DNA of 64,000 bases from contig PHAA01000015.1 of NCBI GenBank assembly GCA_002840245.1, forward strand, positions 28,808 to 92,807. The letters run 5' to 3'. Position 1 is the stretch's first letter. Every line of letters starts with the position of its first letter. Made by a program: the position numbers and the translations under genes. Under the pieces are notes generated by a model. The model worked only from the letters and a program-made list of their open reading frames with translations. It made no database searches and had not been told where the DNA came from. Of the stretch, positions 13,469-64,000 are shown piece by piece. This DNA is from Firmicutes bacterium HGW-Firmicutes-15 (lineage in GTDB: Bacteria; Bacillota; Syntrophomonadia; Syntrophomonadales; Syntrophomonadaceae).

Positions 13469-13620
13469 TTTGCTTCCCTTCCCTCAATCGTTTGAGATAT
13501 TTATTATCAAATCCATCTCAGTCTGTCTTTGTGTACAGATTATCACTAGTTTATTAAGCCGGTAGGGGATATTTATTAAATTTGCCTTTAAGGATTGTAA
13601 AAGAATTGTAAATGAAGAAA

Positions 13621-13890
13621 TCGACAAGCTGCCAGCGCGAGCAAAAAAGGCGAAGAGCAAGGCTTGCAAAAATACCGTGCAACCTTATTATGTGAACGAA
13701 GTGAACACCGGGAGTACCCGTAGGGTGATTGAGGCGATTAAGGTATAGGGACGGACCGTCTGCTTCAAATTAAGGTCACGTCCCCGGCATAATGTATGGC
13801 GACACACCCCTTAAGGGGAATGTCCCCGTATGAAGTACGTCGATTGAACGGAATTTTTGCATAACGCAGCTATTCGCTTTTTTTGACGGT
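13621..13890 (+). repeat. Mosaic palindromic intergenic repeat, copy A (long form), in the pstS-pstC intercistronic gap
   Basis: It shares the blocks tcgacaag, gtgattgaggcg, gtacgtcgattgaacgg, ataacgcagc and attcgcttttttt-gacgg with copy B (49538-49688), and agtacccgtagggtga with copy C. It carries an extra segment of about 100 nt with small GC hairpins such as ccccttaagggg. Confidence 0.65.
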
Positions 13891-13896
13891 CTGTGG

Positions 13897-32191: not shown

Positions 32192-32200
32192 TCTTTCTTC

Positions 32201-32285
32201 CAGGCTGATGACAGGAGTGAAGATCAAGACATGAGAAGGCCCGTTCAATTGAACGGGCCTTTTGATATAACGCTGAGCGACGTCC
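32201..32285 (+). repeat. Mosaic repeat, copy D (short, collapsed form), containing a perfect 22-nt palindrome terminator
   Basis: aggctgatgacaggagtgaagatcaagacatgagaa almost matches copy B at 49567-49602. The core has collapsed to ggcccgttcaattgaacgggcc (32238-32259) followed by tttt. It lies between convergent genes. Confidence 0.65.
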
Positions 32286-32312: not shown

Positions 32313-33254
32313 CTATTTCAAATTCTTATCGAGAAAATCCAGTACCTTATTTACATTTTCAGGACTGTTAAAGCGTTTACCACCATGCCCTGCTCCTTGT
32401 ATCACTTCAATTTCCACCTTATCCTTACCGAGTACTGCTTGAAGTTTTGCTGCAAATTCTGTTGATTGTTGCATAGGAATCCATTTATCTTCCGATCCCT
32501 GCTGAATAAAGAAAGGCGGGTCGTCTCGAGTAATATAGGTCTCCGGGTTTGCCATCGTCACCAGATCTGGGACCTGGGTGATTTGTTTTCCCATGAGCTT
32601 GGAGCCGAAGGAATCAGGATTATCCTGAAGATGTCCTGCGATTCCGCTTTGTTTAAACTGCTCATCCATAGTTAGAAAGTTAATGGGGCCGCACCAATCA
32701 ACTACTGCCTGCACCCTATCAGATTGAAACATATACCCTAAGCTTGGATCCTGTAATTCTATAATCTTTCCGGAAGTTCCGGCTAAAGCTGCCAGGCCGC
32801 CCCCGGCTGAGCTTCCCCATACGGCGATTTTTTCGGGGTTTAAGTCGTAATTGCGTGCATTGGCCCTGATGAAACGTATAGCCGCTTTTATGTCATTAAT
32901 TTGAGCAGGAAAGATCGCTTCTGAACTTAATCGATAGTTGACAGAGACAACAGCGTAACCCCGCTTAAGTCCCTCCCAGGCAGTTAGCACGTCGGGACCA
33001 ACTTTGTCACCTGCCTCATAGCCGCCCCCGTGAATCGATACTATTACCGGAAAGGGTCCCTTTACATCATTATGTGAATAAATATTAGGTAAATAAATGT
33101 CTAGCTTTTGGGCTGCTGAAGCATAAGCATATGGTACATCCAGCCATTTATATTGGTTGGGTGTTGTGCTCGTTTCATCCGATTCTGAGAGTGCTCCGGT
33201 TACAAGCACCAAGACTAGAATTAGTGCAATCATCGCTGCGAGCTGCTTCTTCAT
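32313..33254 (-). CDS. Secreted alpha/beta-hydrolase (esterase/lipase, HGGG type), paralog 1
   Basis: Signal/TM N-terminus, oxyanion motif SIHGGGY, nucleophile elbow GSSAGG, and a C-terminal GAGHGG. Confidence 0.8.
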   Translation of the reverse strand: MKKQLAAMIALILVLVLVTGALSESDETSTTPNQYKWLDVPYAYASAAQKLDIYLPNIYSHNDVKGPFPVIVSIHGGGYEAGDKVGPDVLTAWEGLKRGYAVVSVNYRLSSEAIFPAQINDIKAAIRFIRANARNYDLNPEKIAVWGSSAGGGLAALAGTSGKIIELQDPSLGYMFQSDRVQAVVDWCGPINFLTMDEQFKQSGIAGHLQDNPDSFGSKLMGKQITQVPDLVTMANPETYITRDDPPFFIQQGSEDKWIPMQQSTEFAAKLQAVLGKDKVEIEVIQGAGHGGKRFNSPENVNKVLDFLDKNLK

Positions 33255-36493: not shown

Positions 36494-37435
36494 TTATATC
36501 CTGCCGCTGTAGTTTAATTTTAAGGTCTTGTCCAGAAAGTCTAACACCTTATTAAGATTTCCAGGGTTGTTGAACGGTTGACCGCCATGTCCTACCCCGG
36601 GCATTATTTCAAGTTCCACCTTATCCTTACCAAGTACTGCCTCAAGTTTAGCTGCAAATTCTATGGATTGCTGCACCGGGACCCAGATATCTGTCGTTCC
36701 ATGTTGAATGAAAACAGGCGGGTCATCTGGGCTAATATAAGTTTCCGGGTTGGCCTTTCTCGCTAGATCGGGAACCTCGTTGACTTGTTTGCCTAAATAT
36801 TTGGAACCGTAGGAAGTAGGGGTATTGGTAGGATATCCTGCAACTCCGCTTGCTTTATACTGTTCATCCATAGTAAGTAAGTTCATAGGTCCGCACCAGT
36901 CAACCACTGCCTGCACTCGATCAGACTGATCCGAATTGCCCAGGGTTAAATCTTGCAGTTCCTTAACATCCCCGGAGGTACCGGCCAGAGCTGCCAGTGT
37001 TCCTCCGGCTGAGCTTCCCCATACGGCAATTTTATCAGGGTTTAGGTTATATTTGCTGGCATTGGCCTTGATAAAACGTATGGCAGCTTTTACATCAGCA
37101 ATCTGAGCTGGAAAAAGCGCTTCACCGCTTAATCTATAGTTAACAGAGACAACAGCGTATCCCCTCTCACGTCCTGCCCAAGCTGCCAGCGCGTCTGGAC
37201 CAACTTTATCTCCCGTACAATAACCTCCCCCGTGGATCGACACGATAACCGGATAAGGCCCTTTTATTTTATCTGGCAGATAGATATCTAGCTTTTGTGA
37301 TGCGGAAACATTTGCATAGGGGATATCGGTCCATTTATATAGGCTGGAATACACACTTCTATATGCTGGAGGTGCTATGGTTACAAGCACCACTAATACT
37401 AAAATGGCTATAATCCCTATAAGTGCCTTTTTCAC
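36494..37435 (-). CDS. Secreted alpha/beta-hydrolase (esterase/lipase), paralog 2
   Basis: Same length (313 aa) and colinear with 32313-33254. It shares SIHGGGY, GSSAGG and GVGHGG, and long stretches are identical. Confidence 0.8.
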   Translation of the reverse strand: MKKALIGIIAILVLVVLVTIAPPAYRSVYSSLYKWTDIPYANVSASQKLDIYLPDKIKGPYPVIVSIHGGGYCTGDKVGPDALAAWAGRERGYAVVSVNYRLSGEALFPAQIADVKAAIRFIKANASKYNLNPDKIAVWGSSAGGTLAALAGTSGDVKELQDLTLGNSDQSDRVQAVVDWCGPMNLLTMDEQYKASGVAGYPTNTPTSYGSKYLGKQVNEVPDLARKANPETYISPDDPPVFIQHGTTDIWVPVQQSIEFAAKLEAVLGKDKVELEIMPGVGHGGQPFNNPGNLNKVLDFLDKTLKLNYSGRI

Positions 37436-42004: not shown

Positions 42005-45000
42005 TTAGGGCTGTGGTATTAATACGTCAGTCCAGGGAAATGTAGTAGGGCCACCTTGTTGGGTGGTGATTGTAAAAGTGTTAGCGTTAGTATCCATGCT
42101 AAAGCCAGTAATATAGCGACATCCAGTCTTTACCCACTGCTGTTTAAACGAATCGTCACTATTGAAAGCTACAATGTAAACAGGATAAGGGTAAGGATTA
42201 TTGGAATCATCATATAGGAAGTATTTGTACTTGCCCCAAGTAAATCCGTAGTTGGCACCGTACAAATTACTGCTGGGTGGAGGAGGCTGACTGCCTCCTC
42301 CCAGAACCGGATCACCAAGTACTACCGTGATGGTATAGACATTGATGGTTCCATCTTCCGCTTTGACAGCTAACTTATCGCCAAATAGCATGGTGTCCGT
42401 TGAGCTTTTGGCGGTGGCAGTGTCAAATCCGGTTTGATCATCTATGGTCGTTCCTGTTATGACTACCTTCCACGAGGCCTGGGCATGCTTGGTCAGATTC
42501 GCCAGGAAGGTTGTCACGGTGACATTGGTGTTAATCACAGTTGAAGCAGCGACTATGGTGTTGCCGGTATCATCTACTGTATAATGACTTGCTGCAGTAG
42601 TTACTGTAGCATCATTGCTTAGCCGCCTTATCGTCAAGTTGTAGTTGCCTTGAGTAGTTCCGTCCTGAGCTGTTACCTGGATGTAACTAAGGTTGTCTCC
42701 TACCACCAAGTTTATTAGTTGGGCTATCTCGGTAGTATAGCCGCTATCGCTATACAACTTCCAATTGGCATCAGGACTAACACTTACGTCTACAGTTAGG
42801 CTGCTTATGTTATTGGCTACGCTTGCGGTTATATTGTTCCCGCTTATGCTGCCTCCTGCCGGGCTGTTTACTCCTGTTACTACACAGGTTGATGAGGTTG
42901 CTCGGGTAACTATCAGGTTGTATAATCCTTGAGTAGTTCCATCCTGGGCTATTACCTTGATATAACTCTGGTTGCTCCCTACGATCAGATTCATCTGTTT
43001 ACTTGTTATCTCGACTAGATAGGCATCATCGCTGAACAGCTTCCAAGTGGCATCAGGGCTTACACTTACGTCTACGGTCAGGTTGCTGATGTTATTGGCT
43101 ACGCTTGCGGTTATATTGTTCCCGGTTATGCTGCCTCCCGCCGGACTAGTTACTCCTGTTACTACACATTCTGATGAGCCTGCTACTGCTGCTGTTGCTG
43201 CACTAGTTACAGTACCAGAGTAGCTGCCCGTACCTATTGCGGCTACTTTAATAAACTTAGTTGCATCGCCTGCAACTGGTGTGTATTTGTTTGTTGTTGC
43301 TCCCACAATGTCAGCATAGGTGCCAGATTCTGTAGCGCATATCATCCATTGATAACTTACTGTAGCATTTGCTGGGGTCAATGCACCGGCTGTTAATTCA
43401 GCGCCAACTTTTGCTGTACCGCTTGTAGTGGTAATAGCACTTACCCCTATAGTTGCATTGGTTTCACTATCATTACTATTAGGGGCTGGATCTGGCTGAA
43501 GGGCTTCCTGTGCCGCTTGGCTCAGTTCCTGCTGTAAATCTTGCAGTTGCTGCTGTAGGTCTTGTTTAACTTGTTCAGTAAGCTGTATGCCACTGGATTC
43601 CAAGCCCATTAGCACTACATCCAGCATGTTCTGTACTTGTTCTTCCTGTTTTTCTTCGACCGGTTGGTCAGGTATTTCCAATATCATTTCCACTAGCGGA
43701 GGTGGTGCAGCTTCCTTATTCTTATCTATTTGCAAGGCAGTATTAATCACCCAGCCCTGCACATTACCAAAGGCCTGTTTATCCTGCTCACTCATCTTGG
43801 TATCTGGTCCGGCGGTTCCTCCCTGGCCAATTCCGCTGCTCGTACCTCCAACCAGAGGCACTGCATCTCCAATCATGCCTCTTACATCAACATTTCCGGT
43901 AAGACAGCTTACATTACAAGTCCCGTCCTTATTTACGCTTACTAATATAAAGGTTCCTCTTACAGCAGCCACGCCCCAGGGCATGTCCACTGTCATTCTT
44001 ACCTTTTTTGTCTGTGCAGTCTGATACCAGGGGGCCTGGTTGTCAGCAATAAATTGCTTGCTGTCAAGTGATGCCAGCAAGGGGGAGTTAGCTCTAGCCT
44101 GCTGTTTTTTTGTGGATTCATGTTTAGTAGCCAGGGCTCCAAATACTGTCCCTTTTTTCAGGTCTATGTCGACATTCTCTACTGAGGTTCCGCTGAAACC
44201 GTCATTTTTTATGTAGGCTCTGCCGATAGATTCTTTTATGTTAATCTCGGTATTTTCTTTTATGAGGACACTACTGCCATCAGGATAGAATATGCTGGCA
44301 CTGGCGTTGGCTCCTGTTATTATGGTATCTCCCAAATATACGGAGCTATCATTCTGAAGTGGGGTAGTAGCTCCATTGCGTGTAAGTTTAATGTCTCCTT
44401 TAACGTCTTTTATGGTTCCTTTCAGGCTGACTGTATAGAGTCCAGGGTCCTTGGTCAACAGGGTTCCTAATGCCCGGGCGAGGCTTCCCCGCTTCATCAC
44501 TGCATCGGGGTATATTTGCTTGCCATCCGCAGACAAGCCTATCATCTCTGCTGCCAGGGCAACTGCCATTTCTCCTGCCGCCCAGTGGTTTTGCTCCATG
44601 TCATTAAGTACGGGAAGGGGGACTCGATCTTTTTGGGTTGATAATCTCATTATTAGGGCTATTCCCTGAGCCCGGGTTAGTTTATCTTCGGGTTTATAGG
44701 TTCCATCGGGGAATCCTTTTAGATAGCCGACTTTGGTTGCTGCTGCTATGTTGGCTGCTGCCCAGTGATCAGCTTGTACGTCGGGAAATCCGGTCTCGGT
44801 TACTGCGGGTGTCTCAAGTCCGGTAGCCTTTACTAGTACTACTGCGGCCTGAGCCCGGGTTAATCCTTCTTCAGGGTGAAAATTACCGTCCGGAAAACCG
44901 CTTAATATCTTCCGGTTGCTTAGGTAGTTTATAAAAACTGAGTTGTTGTTCGTGGATGTTACGTCTGGGAAAATCTGTTTTAGCTGCTCGGTTTTTGTTG

Positions 45001-49170: not shown

Positions 49171-49357
49171 GACAACATTCCTCCGCCTCGGTAATATTAG
49201 CCTAGGCTGTTATTCCTGAGTATATTTATATATTTTTATTATGTAAAGATAAATAAGTGCTATTGCTTAGCAGGGCATTCGTTGCCAGTTGCGAGGTTAT
49301 TTGCTGTTGCCTGTGATATAATAATTAATGGTAATAAGATCTAGGAGGATAAAAATT

Positions 49358-49522
49358 ATGGAAGAGAATAACAAGGGCTTGGAAATAATGCGCCAACTTA
49401 TTGAGAAGAAAAAGGAAAAGAGCGCATCCCAGGGTAGCATGAAGCGTGGCCCGGAAGATAGGTTCGGTACTAGTAGCCCCGGCAATAAGAAGAATAAAAA
49501 AGGTGGTCTTCCGCCCAAATAA
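49358..49522 (+). CDS. Small basic 54-aa protein (hypothetical)
   Basis: An AGGAGG RBS lies 8 nt before the ATG at 49358. The C-terminus is K/G-rich (GNKKNKKGGLPPK). Confidence 0.45.
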   Translation: MEENNKGLEIMRQLIEKKKEKSASQGSMKRGPEDRFGTSSPGNKKNKKGGLPPK

Positions 49523-49705
49523 ACGAAGTATTCGTTTCAGCTTGTCGACAAAGTCGGCAAGCTGCTAGGCTGATGACAGGAGTGAAGATTAAGGCATGAG
49601 AAAAGCTCGTGATTGAGGCGTACAAAGGTACGTTGATTGAGCGGGGTTTTTGAAATAACGCCGAGATTCGCTTTTGTCAACGGCCTGAAAACGAAGGATT
49701 CGTTT
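49521..49705 (+). repeat. Mosaic repeat, copy B: 151-nt core flanked by a duplicated 17-nt hairpin
   Basis: The flanks are aaacgaagtattcgttt (49521-49537) and aaacgaaggattcgttt (49689-49705). The core shares blocks with copies A, C (inverted) and D. Confidence 0.75.
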
Positions 49706-49817
49706 GGTGTTTTCTTAGACGTCACACAGGGGGAGGTTTCTACCGTCCCCTGTGTGTGCTAGTTTATAAAAAAGCTGAAAATATGGATATAGGCTAATGC
49801 TAAACTGAAAGGGAGTA

Positions 49818-51990
49818 GTGTCTCTGGAACAGATATTTAACCGTATATTTGCAGAAGCACATATATCAATCAAACAAATAAAGGCGGTAGCCCAATTATT
49901 AGATGATAGTAATACCGTACCGTTTATCGCTCGTTATCGTAAAGAGATGACCGGAGGTCTTGACGAAAACGAGCTTCGTTTAATTGAAGATAGGCTAAAA
50001 TTTCACCGTAACCTGGAGCAAAGGAAAGAAGAAGTAATCCGTCTTATAGATGGACAGGGCAAGCTCACCGATGATTTGGTGACGCAAATTAGCAAGGCTA
50101 CAAAAACTGTCGAGATCGATGACATCTATCTTCCATTTAGGCAGAAACGAAAAACTCGGGCATCGATGGCTCGTGATAAAGGACTTCAAGCTTTAGCGGA
50201 CTACCTGCTTAATTTCCCTTCCGAAGGGAATCTTGAGGAGGAAGCACTACGGTATCTCTCCGATCAGGTTCTAACAATTGAAGCCGCTTTGCAGGGAGCT
50301 AAGGACATCATTGCTGAGCAAGTGTCTGAGGACGCAACAGCCCGGCGTTGGATACGAGAATATAGCCGCAAACATGGAGTAATAGTGGTTAGCACCAAAG
50401 ATGTAAAGACTGAATCACCATACCGTATGTATTATGACTACCAGGAAGCAGTTGCTAAGATTCCTCCCCATAGAATATTAGCTATCAACCGGGGCGAAAG
50501 AGAGGAAATACTCAGGGTCTCGATCTCCGTTGGGGTAGAAAAAATTATCGACTTTTTAAATAAACTCTATGTGAAACCTGATATCACCGCTTCTTATGTC
50601 ACTGGAGCCATAGAAGACAGTTACTCCAGGCTCATTAAGCCATCTATTGAACGGGATCTGAGGAATGAACTAAGTGAAAAAGCGGAAGAACATGCTATAA
50701 ATATCTTTGCGAAAAACCTGGGTAATCTTCTCCTACAGCCTCCAATTAAAGGGCAGGTCATTCTAGGCCTGGATCCAGCTTACCGTACTGGCTGCAAATG
50801 GACTGTAGTGGATGAAACTGGAAAAATGCTGGAGGTGGGAGTGGTATACCCAACACCACCCCAAAAGAAAGTGGCTGAGGCAGAGGCGGTTCTTCTAAAA
50901 CGCATGCATTGTAGCAAATATGATTAAGAGTCAGAATCTACAAATTCCCTATACTATCGTTAGCGAAGCCGGTGCCAGTGTATATTCAGCATCCAAGCTA
51001 GCCGGCCTTGAATTTCCTAACCTGGATGTGTCGGAACGGAGCGCCATATCTATAGCCCGGCGGGTACAAGATCCTTTGGCAGAACTGGTGAAAATAGAGC
51101 CTAAGGCAATTGGTGTAGGACAGTATCAGCACGACCTTCCTCAGAAAAAATTGGACGATAACCTGACTGCAGTTGTAGAATCAGCTGTAAACCAAGTGGG
51201 TGTAGACCTTAACACCGCTTCAGCATCGCTGTTATCCTATGTTTCAGGGCTTTCTTCTACTGTGGCCAACAACATTGTAGAATACCGCGATATCAACGGC
51301 AAATTTAAGAACCGAAAACAGTTACTGAAGGTAACGAAGTTAGGCCCCAAGTCATTTCAGCAAGCTGCCGGGTTCCTGCGTATATATGATGGATGCAGCA
51401 TTATTGGCGACCACAAAGGAGCAACAGCAGCCTTAATTGTACCGCTTGCGGTACATCAGGAGTCCCCCAAGGGGGAAGTGCCCGGAGGGTTTAACCCGCT
51501 TGATGCCACAGCCATTCACCCGGAATCCTATGATCTGGCGATGAAGGTACTTGAAGTTACTGCAGCAATACCTGCGGAAATAGGGCAAGCTTCATTGGCA
51601 GCAAAACTAGAAGCGCTGGACATTAAAATCCTGGCTCCAAGCCTAGGGGCAGGGGAGCCAACCTTAAGAGATGTGATTGATTGTTTGCTAAAGCCACATC
51701 GTGATCCACGGGAGGATTTACCTCTGCCCATTTTCAGGACTGACGTACTAAGCATCGAAGACCTGGCTACAGGCATGTCCATGACTGGGACTGTAAGAAA
51801 CGTAGTTGACTTCGGAGCGTTTGTGGATATCGGGGTGAAGAGCGATGGATTAGTTCATCTGTCCGAGCTGGCTGACCGTTATATTCGTCATCCTATGGAA
51901 ATTGTCTCGGTTGGGGATGTGGTAACAGTACGGGTCTTGTCGATTGACCGGGAACGGGGAAAAGTATCCCTATCCATGAAATCTATCTAA
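49818..51990 (+). pseudogene. tex: Tex (S1-domain transcription accessory protein), split into two frames, with an internal deletion and an in-frame insertion
   Basis: The Tex_N motif TVPFIARYRKEMTGGLDE, the YqgF region LGLDPAYRTGCKWTVVDETG, then VSEAGASVYSAS, GVGQYQHD, HhH regions and the C-terminal S1 (GTVRNVVDFGAFVDIG) are all present. ORF 1 stops at 50927 and ORF 2 continues in the +1 frame from 50920. The canonical IAIGNGTASRE segment is missing. Confidence 0.8.
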
Positions 51991-52916: not shown

Positions 52917-52965
52917 AGATATTGTAGGATATAATTGCTTATACCAATTATATCCTACAATATCT
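52917..52965. promoter_or_regulatory. Perfect 21-bp inverted repeat with a 7-nt loop, in the divergent DUF502 / DEAD-box helicase intergenic region
   Basis: agatattgtaggatataattg-cttatac-caattatatcctacaatatct. Confidence 0.5.
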
Positions 52966-54573: not shown

Positions 54574-54815
54574 GACCCGCCGAATTATTCAGCGGGTCTC
54601 AGATCGTCAAAAAAGCCCAATAGCGGCGTTATTAATAAAAGCCCGTTCAATCAACGTACCTATGTACGCCTCAATCACGGGCTTTTATTAATGCCTTGCT
54701 CTTGCGACATCAATTGTACCGCACGCGGTACATCAGTAGTACCCGTAGGGTGAACTTTTTTGCTCGGCCTGACTTTATCGGCACCCTGTGACCCGCCGAA
54801 TTCATTTAGCGGGTC
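54574..54815 (-). repeat. Mosaic repeat, copy C (inverted relative to B): 191-nt core flanked by a duplicated 25/26-nt terminator hairpin
   Basis: The flanks are gacccgccgaattattcagcgggtc (54574-54598) and gacccgccgaattcatttagcgggtc (54790-54815). The reverse complement of the core aligns block by block with copy B. Confidence 0.75.
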
Positions 54816-54820
54816 TTTTT
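54790..54820 (+). terminator. Rho-independent terminator of the DEAD-box helicase gene (the distal copy of the duplicated hairpin)
   Basis: gacccgc-loop-gcgggtc followed by ttttt. The proximal copy at 54574-54598 has no T-run. Confidence 0.7.
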
Positions 54821-63410: not shown

Positions 63411-64000
63411 ATGATAAGGAGAAAAATGGGACAGCTGGGAGCGATAATGCTATTTATGTTCAGCATAACCTTAATCCTGGCCAATCCCGCCAAAGCTGCA
63501 GATGCGGTGATCAAGGCCGAATCCGTCCCAACACTGGTATCCCAGTTTAAAGATGTCCAATCCACTGATTCTAACGCCATATTTATTAGCTATTTAGCAG
63601 GAAAAGGCATTATAAATGGCTTTCCCGACGGAGGTTTTCATCCAGGTGAAGGACTAACCCGGGCCCAGGCCGCCGTAGTTTTGGTAAAGGCCGTCGGGCT
63701 AAACACCCCCACAGTAACTGAGACCGGATTTCCCGACGTACAAACTGATCACTGGGCAGCAGCCAACATAGCAGCGGCAACCAAAGCCGGCTACCTAAAG
63801 GGATTCCCCGACGGAACCTATAAACCAGAAGATAAAATAACTCGGGCTCAAGGAATAGCCCTAATAATGAGATTATCTGCCCAAAAGGACCGGACTCCCC
63901 TTCCCGTACTTAATGACATGGAGCAAAGCCACTGGGCGGCAGGAGAAATGGCAGTTGCTCTGGCAGCAGAAATGATAGGCTTGTCTGCGGATGGCAAGCA
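63411..64000 (+). CDS. SLH-domain surface protein, 3'-partial (runs off the window); paralog of 42005-45109
   Basis: Absent from the ORF track because no stop is reached. It starts MIRRKMGQLGAIMLFMFSITLILANPAKA, then has SLH repeats nearly identical to those of the 1034-aa protein (GFPDVQTDHWAAANIAAATKAGYLKGFPDGTYKPEDKITRAQGIALIMRL...). Confidence 0.85.
   Translation, partial: MIRRKMGQLGAIMLFMFSITLILANPAKAADAVIKAESVPTLVSQFKDVQSTDSNAIFISYLAGKGIINGFPDGGFHPGEGLTRAQAAVVLVKAVGLNTPTVTETGFPDVQTDHWAAANIAAATKAGYLKGFPDGTYKPEDKITRAQGIALIMRLSAQKDRTPLPVLNDMEQSHWAAGEMAVALAAEMIGLSADGK

What the first reader, a model, noticed from the sequence alone, without database searches (positions are those of the whole stretch)
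51394..51489. Module of the palindromic repeat inserted in-frame inside tex
Tex proteins normally read ...AAGFLRI..G.NPLD..VHPE... Here about 32 extra residues (CSIIGDHKGATAALIVPLAVHQESPKGEVPGG) sit between LRIYDG and FNPLD.

The inserted DNA contains taattgtaccgcttgcggtacatcaggagtccccc (51434-51468). By my count this matches 29 of 35 positions of caattgtaccgcacgcggtacatcagtagtacccg in repeat copy C (54711-54745). It also carries two small palindromes, gtaccgc..gcggtac and tccccc-aa-ggggga.

An insertion of 96 nt keeps the reading frame. This recalls the Rickettsia palindromic elements, which insert in-frame into genes.
Basis: partly seen in the sequence, partly recalled or inferred. Interest (0 to 1): 0.62.

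Follow-up and report, generated by a model that had tools for sequence, protein, structure and literature searches.

The report
Hairpin-repeat cassette inserted in-frame in tex
A 96-base block of four small hairpins, normally an optional internal part of a mobile intergenic repeat in Syntrophomonas-like bacteria, sits alone and in frame inside the conserved tex gene, where it adds a 32-residue, probably floppy, loop; this kind of event is known, but here it is seen in a new bacterial group and with an apparently undescribed repeat family.

Summary
Window 51394-51489 is a 96-nt, 32-codon, stop-free insertion in tex. It is absent from all close orthologues (94%, 92% and 80% identity), from 102 of 103 homologues checked, and from Pseudomonas Tex. 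An independent assembly of the source reads contains it.

The whole insert, not just the 35 nt noted, aligns end to end with a discrete cassette (TGCAAC...GGG). This cassette occurs in 0, ~48 or ~96-nt forms inside a 190-310-nt repeat family. The family has terminal inverted repeats and was found in Syntrophomonas and related metagenome-assembled genomes (MAGs). Alignment score is 96 against 25±3.4 for shuffles.

Full elements insert next to terminator hairpins and duplicate the whole hairpin. An empty site in a 96%-identical orthologue shows this. The tex copy has neither inverted repeats nor a duplication, so it arrived by a non-canonical route.

It lies in the linker between two helix-hairpin-helix (HhH) type domains, Pfam HHH_3 and HHH_9, and is predicted disordered. 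Flanking codons show dN/dS of about 0.05.

The apparent frameshift that splits tex in the window is an assembly artefact. The Rickettsia palindromic element (RPE) analogy holds for the outcome, not for family membership. No function is indicated; it is most likely a tolerated passenger.

The parts
49818..50927 (+). tex, 5' part as it stands in the window (ORF1, 369 aa): Tex_N, Tex central region, first 51 positions of Tex_YqgF
50895..50909 (.). Mis-join in the window's assembly. About 62 nt (YqgF core, ...IAIGNGTASRETEQ...) are missing here, which shifts the frame. The real gene is continuous.
   Evidence: Alignment with L001. Pfam profile positions 52-76 are missing. The Logan contig has 63 extra letters before 50909, which read GTASRETEQFVANMIK in frame with ORF2.
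50920..51990 (+). tex, 3' part (ORF2, 356 aa): end of YqgF, HHH_3, HHH_9, S1
51394..51489 (+). The insert: a solitary four-hairpin cassette of the repeat family, 96 nt = 32 codons, with no stop in the tex frame
51394..51407 (+). Cassette start linker TGCAGCATTATTGG (family: TGCAACATTAATCG / GCAACATTATTGG)
51408..51423 (+). Decayed first hairpin (CGACCACAAAGGAGCA; family GTACCGCAAGCGGTAC type), no longer a palindrome
51424..51438 (+). Second linker ACAGCAGCCTTAATT (family: TCAGCAACCTTAATA)
51439..51454 (+). Hairpin 2, perfect 7-bp stem GTACCGC-TT-GCGGTAC
51455..51462 (+). Spacer ATCAGGAG. The usual family form ATCAGTAG would give an in-frame TAG; this copy has the GAG variant, also seen in L006, L008, L012 and L024.
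51463..51476 (+). Hairpin 3, perfect 6-bp stem TCCCCC-AA-GGGGGA
51481..51489 (+). Hairpin 4, CCC-GGA-GGG, the last module of the cassette (family: ACCC-TTG-GGGT type)
54600..54789 (+). Full family copy ('copy C') with terminal inverted repeats. Its two-hairpin cassette is 54703-54750.
54574..54599 (+). Terminator hairpin of the DEAD-box helicase gene, left copy of the target duplication
   Evidence: empty site in L039
54790..54816 (+). Same hairpin, right copy, followed by the T-run
13600..13893 (-). Another family copy. It carries a 48-nt cassette (13678-13725, + strand, TGCAAC...GGG) inverted at a third position; its right arm is empty.
49586..49686 (-). Degenerate family copy just upstream of tex

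Best explanation
Shown:
- The 96 nt at 51394-51489 are one complete copy of a discrete four-hairpin cassette: linker, hairpin, linker, hairpin, spacer, hairpin, spacer, hairpin, running TGCAAC...GGG.
- Elsewhere this cassette is an optional internal module of a 190-310-nt repeat family with terminal inverted repeats, found in Syntrophomonas-like genomes.
- Here the cassette stands alone inside an otherwise intact tex gene, in frame and without stop codons.
- It sits exactly in the linker between two Pfam domains, HHH_3 and HHH_9.

Inferred:
- It arrived after the split from the nearest sampled relatives.
- It did not arrive by the family's normal route. That route leaves terminal inverted repeats and a duplicated terminator hairpin, and both are missing here.
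- The likelier routes are a cassette-level copy event or a copy-choice/repair event at hairpin DNA.
- It persists as a tolerated passenger for three reasons. Its length is a multiple of three. This variant has no stop codon in the frame used. The site is an interdomain linker, where 32 disordered residues do little harm.
- No function of its own is indicated.
For: Insertion and its absence from orthologues.

Reality in reads.

Gene intact despite the window's frameshift.

Homology of the whole insert to the cassette:
- Local alignment score is 96, against shuffles of 25.1 ± 3.4 with a maximum of 35. The alignment to L031 covers insert bases 1-96.
- Identity is 74/93, 73/94 and 71/92 to the four-hairpin cassettes of L017, L031 and L024. 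The cassettes are 73-90% identical to each other.
- Profile hit at E = 2.8e-8.

The cassette is a discrete unit:
- Between fixed anchors, right arms hold 2 nt (4 copies), 49-50 nt (19 copies), 96-98 nt (4 copies) or more.
- Left arms hold 3 nt (17 copies), 49-50 nt (5) or 97 nt (1), inverted.
- A third, inverted position occurs at window 13678-13725.
- The termini are the same in every case.

Canonical insertion signature of the family:
- Terminal inverted repeats CAGACCGTCAAAAAAG / CTTTTTTGCTCGGTCTG.
- Hairpin-sized flank duplication in 7-8 of 19 copies, scores 13-23 against a control maximum of 10.
- An empty site with a single hairpin in L039.

Placement in the protein: between HHH_3 (residues 90-154) and HHH_9 (192-264). 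In the AlphaFold2 model, residues 159-190 have pLDDT of about 27-34 and no secondary structure, while flanks are above 90.

Purifying selection on both sides: dN/dS 0.051 and 0.055 against L001.

No terminator-like site in the insert.
Against: - The route of arrival was not observed, and no donor copy identical to the insert was found.
- Only 64 kb of the host genome is available.
- Low model confidence for a segment absent from the alignment is expected and does not prove disorder.
- dN/dS is averaged over the whole divergence from L001 and cannot show that tex stayed functional after the insertion.
- Hairpins 2 and 3 are still perfect palindromes while hairpin 1 has decayed. This could mean recent arrival, or some constraint that I cannot test.
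- Read support comes from assembled contigs at about 10x depth, not from raw reads, so a minority allele without the insert cannot be excluded.
Confidence: 0.8

Rival explanations
1. A whole element first inserted into tex by the normal route. Later deletions trimmed it to exactly the cassette and restored the reading frame.
For: The family does transpose as whole elements. The native site holds a small GC hairpin (GGGGTTACCCC in L001, GGGTTTAACCC in the window), which faintly resembles the family's hairpin targets.
Against: - It needs at least two separate deletions, one for the left arm plus centre and one for the right inverted repeat.
- Both deletions would have to end exactly at the cassette termini.
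- It also needs a null intermediate, because 25 of 28 whole elements have stops in all frames.
- No trace of a duplicated target is left.
Confidence: 0.12
2. The insert has been taken over for a function. It could act as a new peptide loop that changes Tex's nucleic-acid binding, or as RNA hairpins that affect translation or mRNA stability.
For: Two perfect hairpins are retained inside coding sequence. The site adjoins the HhH nucleic-acid-binding domain.
Against: - The insert is present in one lineage only. No protein in 5.8 billion clusters shares it, and the exhaustive search gave only a chance repeat-protein match.
- It is predicted unstructured.
- The insert as a whole folds no better than shuffles, z = -0.02.
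- No terminator-like signal.
Confidence: 0.06
3. The insert is an assembly chimera: repeat-containing reads wrongly joined into tex.
For: The same window does contain one assembly error, in the same gene, 500 nt upstream. Low-coverage contigs of two other runs break at 51399 and 51434.
Against: - An independent assembly of the main run crosses both junctions in one contig with no differences.
- A chimera would not be expected to give an exact 96-nt, stop-free segment flanked on both sides by collinear tex sequence.
Confidence: 0.02

Closest known systems
Rickettsia palindromic elements (RPE)
   Same: A small palindromic interspersed repeat lies inside a conserved protein-coding gene, keeps the reading frame, adds a few dozen residues, and sits where the fold can tolerate it. 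RPE behaviour is as summarised in PMC10969869, read.
   Different: - RPEs insert as whole ~150-bp elements that carry an ORF for a conserved peptide, and a large share of copies are intragenic (PMC10969869).
- Here only an internal module is inserted.
- Whole elements of this family are closed in all frames in 25 of 28 copies.
- About 1 copy in 35 is intragenic.
- The host is a Syntrophomonas-like Firmicute, not Rickettsia.
- Sequence relatedness to RPEs was not tested.
Intragenic copies of other bacterial MITEs (e.g. ERIC; Delihas 2007, as cited in PMC10969869)
   Same: Occasional in-frame fusion of a normally intergenic small repeat with a host ORF. The rarity fits this case better than the RPE pattern does.
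   Different: Those are whole or near-whole elements. Here a discrete internal cassette stands alone, without terminal inverted repeats or a target duplication.
Pneumococcal BOX elements (boxA-(boxB)n-boxC; modular structure from my own knowledge; family described in PMC3049150, seen)
   Same: A modular interspersed repeat whose internal hairpin-forming module varies in copy number between copies. Here that is 0, ~48, ~96 or ~143 nt.
   Different: - No sequence relation was tested.
- This family's module also occurs in either arm, in either orientation, and alone in a gene.
- This family duplicates a whole terminator hairpin on insertion.
REP/BIME mosaic palindromic units of enterobacteria (own knowledge)
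   Same: Mosaics of short GC-rich palindromes placed at the 3' ends of genes next to terminators.
   Different: REPs are mobilised by RAYT transposases and lack the 16-nt terminal inverted repeats and hairpin-sized duplications seen here. No RAYT gene was looked for.

Membership tests
Rickettsia palindromic elements (RPE) | Palindromic repeat lying inside an ORF with the reading frame kept | tested here: met
   96 nt, 32 codons, no stop; palindromes at 51439-51454 and 51463-51476
Rickettsia palindromic elements (RPE) | The whole element is inserted and encodes a conserved peptide; a large fraction of copies are intragenic | tested here: not met
   Only the internal cassette is present. 25 of 28 full elements have no open frame. 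1 of about 35 copies is intragenic in about 300 kb.
Rickettsia palindromic elements (RPE) | Sequence similarity to an RPE family; host in Rickettsia | not tested
   No RPE library was at hand. Best relatives of the window's proteins and all repeat copies are Syntrophomonas/Syntrophomonadaceae.
Rickettsia palindromic elements (RPE) | Insert lies at a site compatible with the protein fold (surface loop) | tested here: inconclusive
   It lies between Pfam HHH_3 and HHH_9. The AlphaFold2 model gives pLDDT 27-34 for residues 159-190, with confident flanks. Low confidence is expected for a segment absent from the alignment.
Bacterial MITE (the parent repeat family) | Terminal inverted repeats | tested here: met
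   CAGACCGTCAAAAAAG ... CTTTTTTGCTCGGTCTG in nearly all full copies. They pair as the closing stem of copy C, fold z = -4.06.
Bacterial MITE (the parent repeat family) | Target-site duplication | tested here: met
   Flanking direct repeats of a whole host hairpin, 16-26 nt, in 7-8 of 19 copies; control maximum score 10 vs observed 13-23. Empty site with one hairpin in L039. The length is unusual for a MITE.
Bacterial MITE (the parent repeat family) | Small, non-coding, many copies per genome | tested here: met
   190-310 nt; at least 4 copies in this 64-kb window; several per metagenome contig
Bacterial MITE (the parent repeat family) | A cognate autonomous insertion sequence with the same ends | not tested
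   No such element turned up among inverted-repeat matches in about 300 kb, but no transposase search was run.
Bacterial MITE (the tex copy itself, as a canonical insertion) | Terminal inverted repeats and target duplication at the insertion | tested here: not met
   The insert begins TGCAGC and ends GGAGGG. It has no inverted repeats, and no flank repeat beyond an ambiguous GG.
BOX-type modular repeat | Internal module present in variable copy number between conserved ends | tested here: met
   Right arm 2 / 49-50 / 96-98 / 113 / 143 nt. Left arm 3 / 49-50 / 97 nt.
BOX-type modular repeat | Sequence homology to boxA/B/C | not tested
   No BOX model available. Rfam gave no hit for the elements.
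Tex / Spt6-like protein (host gene) | Tex_N, central region, YqgF, HhH, S1 domain order | tested here: met
   Pfam hits on both ORFs. E = 1e-93 to P. aeruginosa Tex structures. The missing YqgF core is present in reads.

The most novel reading that the evidence does not exclude
The ~48/96-nt hairpin cassette may itself be an insertable unit that moves independently of its parent element. It is seen with identical termini (TGCAAC...GGG) in either arm, in either orientation, at a third internal site, and alone in tex. If so, it can add 16 or 32 codons to coding DNA.

Separately, the parent family integrates by a structure-directed step that duplicates an entire terminator hairpin (16-26 bp, with the length set by the hairpin). 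I could not find this kind of target duplication described for bacterial small repeats.
Probability: 0.3. Interest if true: 0.7.

Novelty: new variant of a known kind. Interest (0 to 1): 0.5.

Why it matters
- It is a clean, read-supported case, outside Rickettsia, of a hairpin repeat adding a peptide segment to a widely conserved RNA-binding protein. It marks the HhH/HHH_9 linker of Tex as a site that tolerates 32 extra residues.
- It shows that what moved was a discrete internal module rather than a whole element. This raises the question of how such modules are copied.
- The parent family appears undescribed: no Rfam match, and no paper found. Its duplication of whole terminator hairpins, proven here by an empty site, is an unusual insertion signature that could be tested in the laboratory.
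- Practically, the work flags a 62-nt assembly error. Left uncorrected, it would lead annotators to call tex a pseudogene in this metagenome-assembled genome.

Tried and rejected
- Rfam at gathering thresholds on the whole window, and at permissive E-values on two element copies: nothing meaningful.
- Reading tex as a pseudogene because of the frameshift: rejected after laying contigs of the source runs on it.
- A second apparently intragenic fragment (L016/L038, same model positions 145-202): it lies in a spurious 198-aa ORF and is really intergenic, downstream of a histidine-kinase gene.
- Peptide searches for other proteins carrying the insert:
  - The 40-aa query found nothing.
  - The exhaustive search returned one protein with a GDHKGGTA repeat, which I judge to be chance.
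- The left 40 nt of the insert looked only weakly related by blastn-short, with 3 of 200 shuffles as good. Gapped alignment to four-hairpin cassettes resolved this.
- Literature searches for Syntrophomonas repeats or MITEs, and for hairpin-sized target duplications, found nothing relevant.
- The host genome is not in the genome collection: no locus carried both window matches. Genome-wide copy counts and the donor copy could therefore not be obtained.

Full report
**1. The observation.**

Window 51394-51489 is 96 nt. In the tex frame it reads CSIIGDHKGATAALIVPLAVHQESPKGEVPGG.

The segment is absent from every relative checked:
- Against P. aeruginosa Tex (PDB 3bzc/2oce), the alignment breaks exactly here. 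Query residue 158 meets chain residue 563, and query residue 189 meets chain residue 562.
- The nearest orthologues lack it. P0001 (94% identical) reads FLRIYA-GVTPLD and P0002 (92%) reads FLRIYE-GGTLPLD.
- At the DNA level, L001 and L002 are collinear with the window on both sides, with 4 nt where the window has 100.
- A syntenic contig, L040, has a 712-aa Tex that is 80% identical and reads FLRIYQGASNPLD.
- Of 103 homologues with the GFLR...HPE landmarks, 102 have the same 20-residue spacing and one has 21.

**2. Is it real DNA?**

The window comes from a groundwater metagenome. Logan's independent contig of the main run is 1959 nt at depth 9.9. It covers 50909-51700 with no difference. A contig from a second run spans the right junction.

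The same contig shows something else. Before 50909 it carries 63 letters that the window lacks. The last 30 of them, joined to the window, read GTASRETEQFVANMIKSQNLQIPYTIVSEA.

In the window tex is split into ORF1 (49818-50927) and ORF2 (50920-51990). About 62 nt, Pfam Tex_YqgF positions 52-76, are missing. Sixty-two extra bases put the two ORFs back in one frame.

The split is therefore a mis-join in the window's assembly. The organism has an intact tex with an in-frame insert.

**3. What the insert is.**

A scan of genomes and metagenomes for GTACCGCNNGCGGTACATCAG gave 5 family copies in Syntrophomonas/Syntrophomonadaceae MAGs, plus 6 chance hits in high-GC genes. It also gave 25 of 25 family copies in metagenome contigs.

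Aligned, these define an element with the following features:
- Length of 190-310 nt.
- Terminal inverted repeats CAGACCGTCAAAAAAG / CTTTTTTGCTCGGTCTG.
- A conserved central hairpin.
- Arms that hold short GC hairpins joined by GCAACATTAAT and CATCAG linkers.

Copy C folds with z = -4.06, with the inverted repeats pairing.

Between fixed anchors, the arms hold discrete length classes:
- The right arm holds 2 nt in 4 copies, 49-50 nt in 19, 96-98 nt in 4, and 113 or 143 nt in one each.
- The left arm holds 3 nt in 17 copies, 49-50 nt in 5 and 97 nt in one, all inverted.
- Window 13678-13725 is a 48-nt unit, inverted, at a third position.

Every unit starts TGCAAC and ends GGG.

The tex insert starts TGCAGC, ends GGAGGG and is 96 nt long. 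It aligns over its whole length with the four-hairpin units:
- Identity is 74/93 to L017, 73/94 to L031 and 71/92 to L024. The units are 73-90% identical to each other.
- The local score is 96, against 25.1 ± 3.4 for 100 shuffles, with a maximum of 35.
- A profile built without the insert finds it at E = 2.8e-8.

The insert is therefore one complete cassette, not an arbitrary fragment.

**4. How the family normally inserts, and why the tex copy differs.**

Nearly every full copy follows a GC-rich host hairpin. In 7-8 of 19 copies with definable ends, the same hairpin recurs right after the element, now followed by the T-run. Flank-to-flank scores are 13-23, against a control maximum of 10.

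For copy C the proof is direct. L039, whose helicase is 96% identical, has a single gacccgccgaatattcagcgggtc followed by tttttt. At that place the window has hairpin, element, hairpin and ttttt. Whole elements thus integrate beside a terminator hairpin and duplicate all of it.

The tex copy has no inverted repeats, and no duplication beyond an ambiguous GG. It did not arrive that way.

The coincidence of both its ends with the cassette termini argues for a cassette-level event. That could be mobility of the cassette itself, or copy-choice or repair at hairpin boundaries. It argues against a random capture, and against a whole-element insertion trimmed by two deletions. This step is inference.

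**5. Why it is tolerated.**

- Ninety-six is 32 codons.
- The usual cassette has CAG TAG in this frame. The L031 unit reads CNINRTASGTSATLIVSECEHQ*SP*GEVPVG.
- The tex copy has the GAG variant and an AA loop. The same tail, CATCAGGAGTCCCCGAAGGGGGAAGTGCCC, exists in the L024 cassette.
- The site is the linker between Pfam HHH_3 (ORF2 residues 90-154) and HHH_9 (192-264).
- The AlphaFold2 model gives pLDDT of about 27-34 and no secondary structure for residues 159-190, with flanks above 90. Low confidence for a segment missing from the alignment is expected.
- dN/dS against L001 is 0.051 upstream and 0.055 downstream of the insert.
- No terminator-like site lies in the insert.
- As a whole the insert folds no better than shuffles, z = -0.02.
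- No other protein in the searched collections carries the peptide.

I read it as a tolerated passenger.

**6. Comparison with known systems.**

The outcome matches what is described for Rickettsia palindromic elements and for rare intragenic ERIC copies (PMC10969869). Membership in the RPEs is not supported:
- Only a module is inserted.
- Whole elements are closed in all frames in 25 of 28 copies.
- About 1 copy in 35 is intragenic.
- The host is Syntrophomonas-like.

The parent family meets the MITE criteria of terminal inverted repeats, target duplication, small size and many copies. Like pneumococcal BOX elements, it has a module of variable copy number. The BOX comparison rests on my own knowledge.

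I found no Rfam family and no paper that describes it.

**7. Verdict.**

It is a new variant of a known kind of event. Interest is moderate, raised somewhat by two features: the discreteness of the cassette and the family's hairpin-sized target duplication.

Noticed in passing
window 50895-50909: The window's assembly lacks about 62 nt of tex (the IAIGNGTASRETE core of the YqgF domain). This splits the gene into two overlapping ORFs. A contig assembled independently from the source run carries the missing stretch in frame, so this is a mis-join and not a pseudogene.
   Followed up: yes
window 54574-54816; L039 1757-1795; also L021, L022, L023, L028, L035, L007, L015: Whole elements of the repeat family sit between two copies of a host terminator hairpin (16-26 nt, differing by 0-3 nt), with the T-run after the second copy. 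An orthologous empty site in L039 has one hairpin. A target duplication whose length is set by the hairpin is unusual.
   Followed up: partly
window 13600-13893 (-), with 13678-13725 (+): A family copy whose left and right arms are both empty carries a 48-nt cassette, inverted, between the central hairpin and the right arm. This is a third position for the same unit.
   Followed up: partly
window 49540-49720 (-) and 32197-32280: Degenerate relatives of the family. They share a 36-nt block at 94% identity (32202-32237 / 49567-49602) that the canonical copies lack, which suggests a second subfamily. The first lies just upstream of tex.
   Followed up: no
L026 7240-7400: An element with the same left end (CCAGACCGTCAAAAAAGGCTAATAGCTGAG) but a different interior: three tandem GTGACAAGGGGACGA units followed by a long perfect palindrome. 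The ends may be shared by several repeat families.
   Followed up: no
L016 4340-4500 and L038 (same sequence): A cassette-like hairpin array (AGTGAGCGAAGCGAAC, GTACCGCTTGCGGTAC, ACCCTTAGGGT) lies downstream of a histidine-kinase gene and next to a VanZ-like gene, on a contig of only 36% G+C. The family or its cassette may reach beyond Syntrophomonadaceae.
   Followed up: partly
window 44517-44904 and 63613-64000: A 388-nt inverted repeat, 88% complementary, with 18.7 kb between the arms. The second arm runs to the end of the window.
   Followed up: no
window 32315-33212 and 36517-37393: Several direct repeats of 30-300 nt at about 75% identity with constant spacing of about 4.19 kb. This looks like a duplicated gene or gene pair.
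   Followed up: no
window 52917-52965: A perfect 21-nt inverted repeat with a 7-nt spacer lies between the DUF502-like gene and the DEAD-box helicase gene. It may be an operator or a bidirectional signal.
   Followed up: no
window 49328-49522 (+): A 64-aa lysine-rich ORF (MVIRSRRIKIMEENNKGLEIMRQLIEKKKEK...) lies between the metallo-beta-lactamase-fold gene and the repeat copy upstream of tex. Whether it is a real gene was not examined.
   Followed up: no
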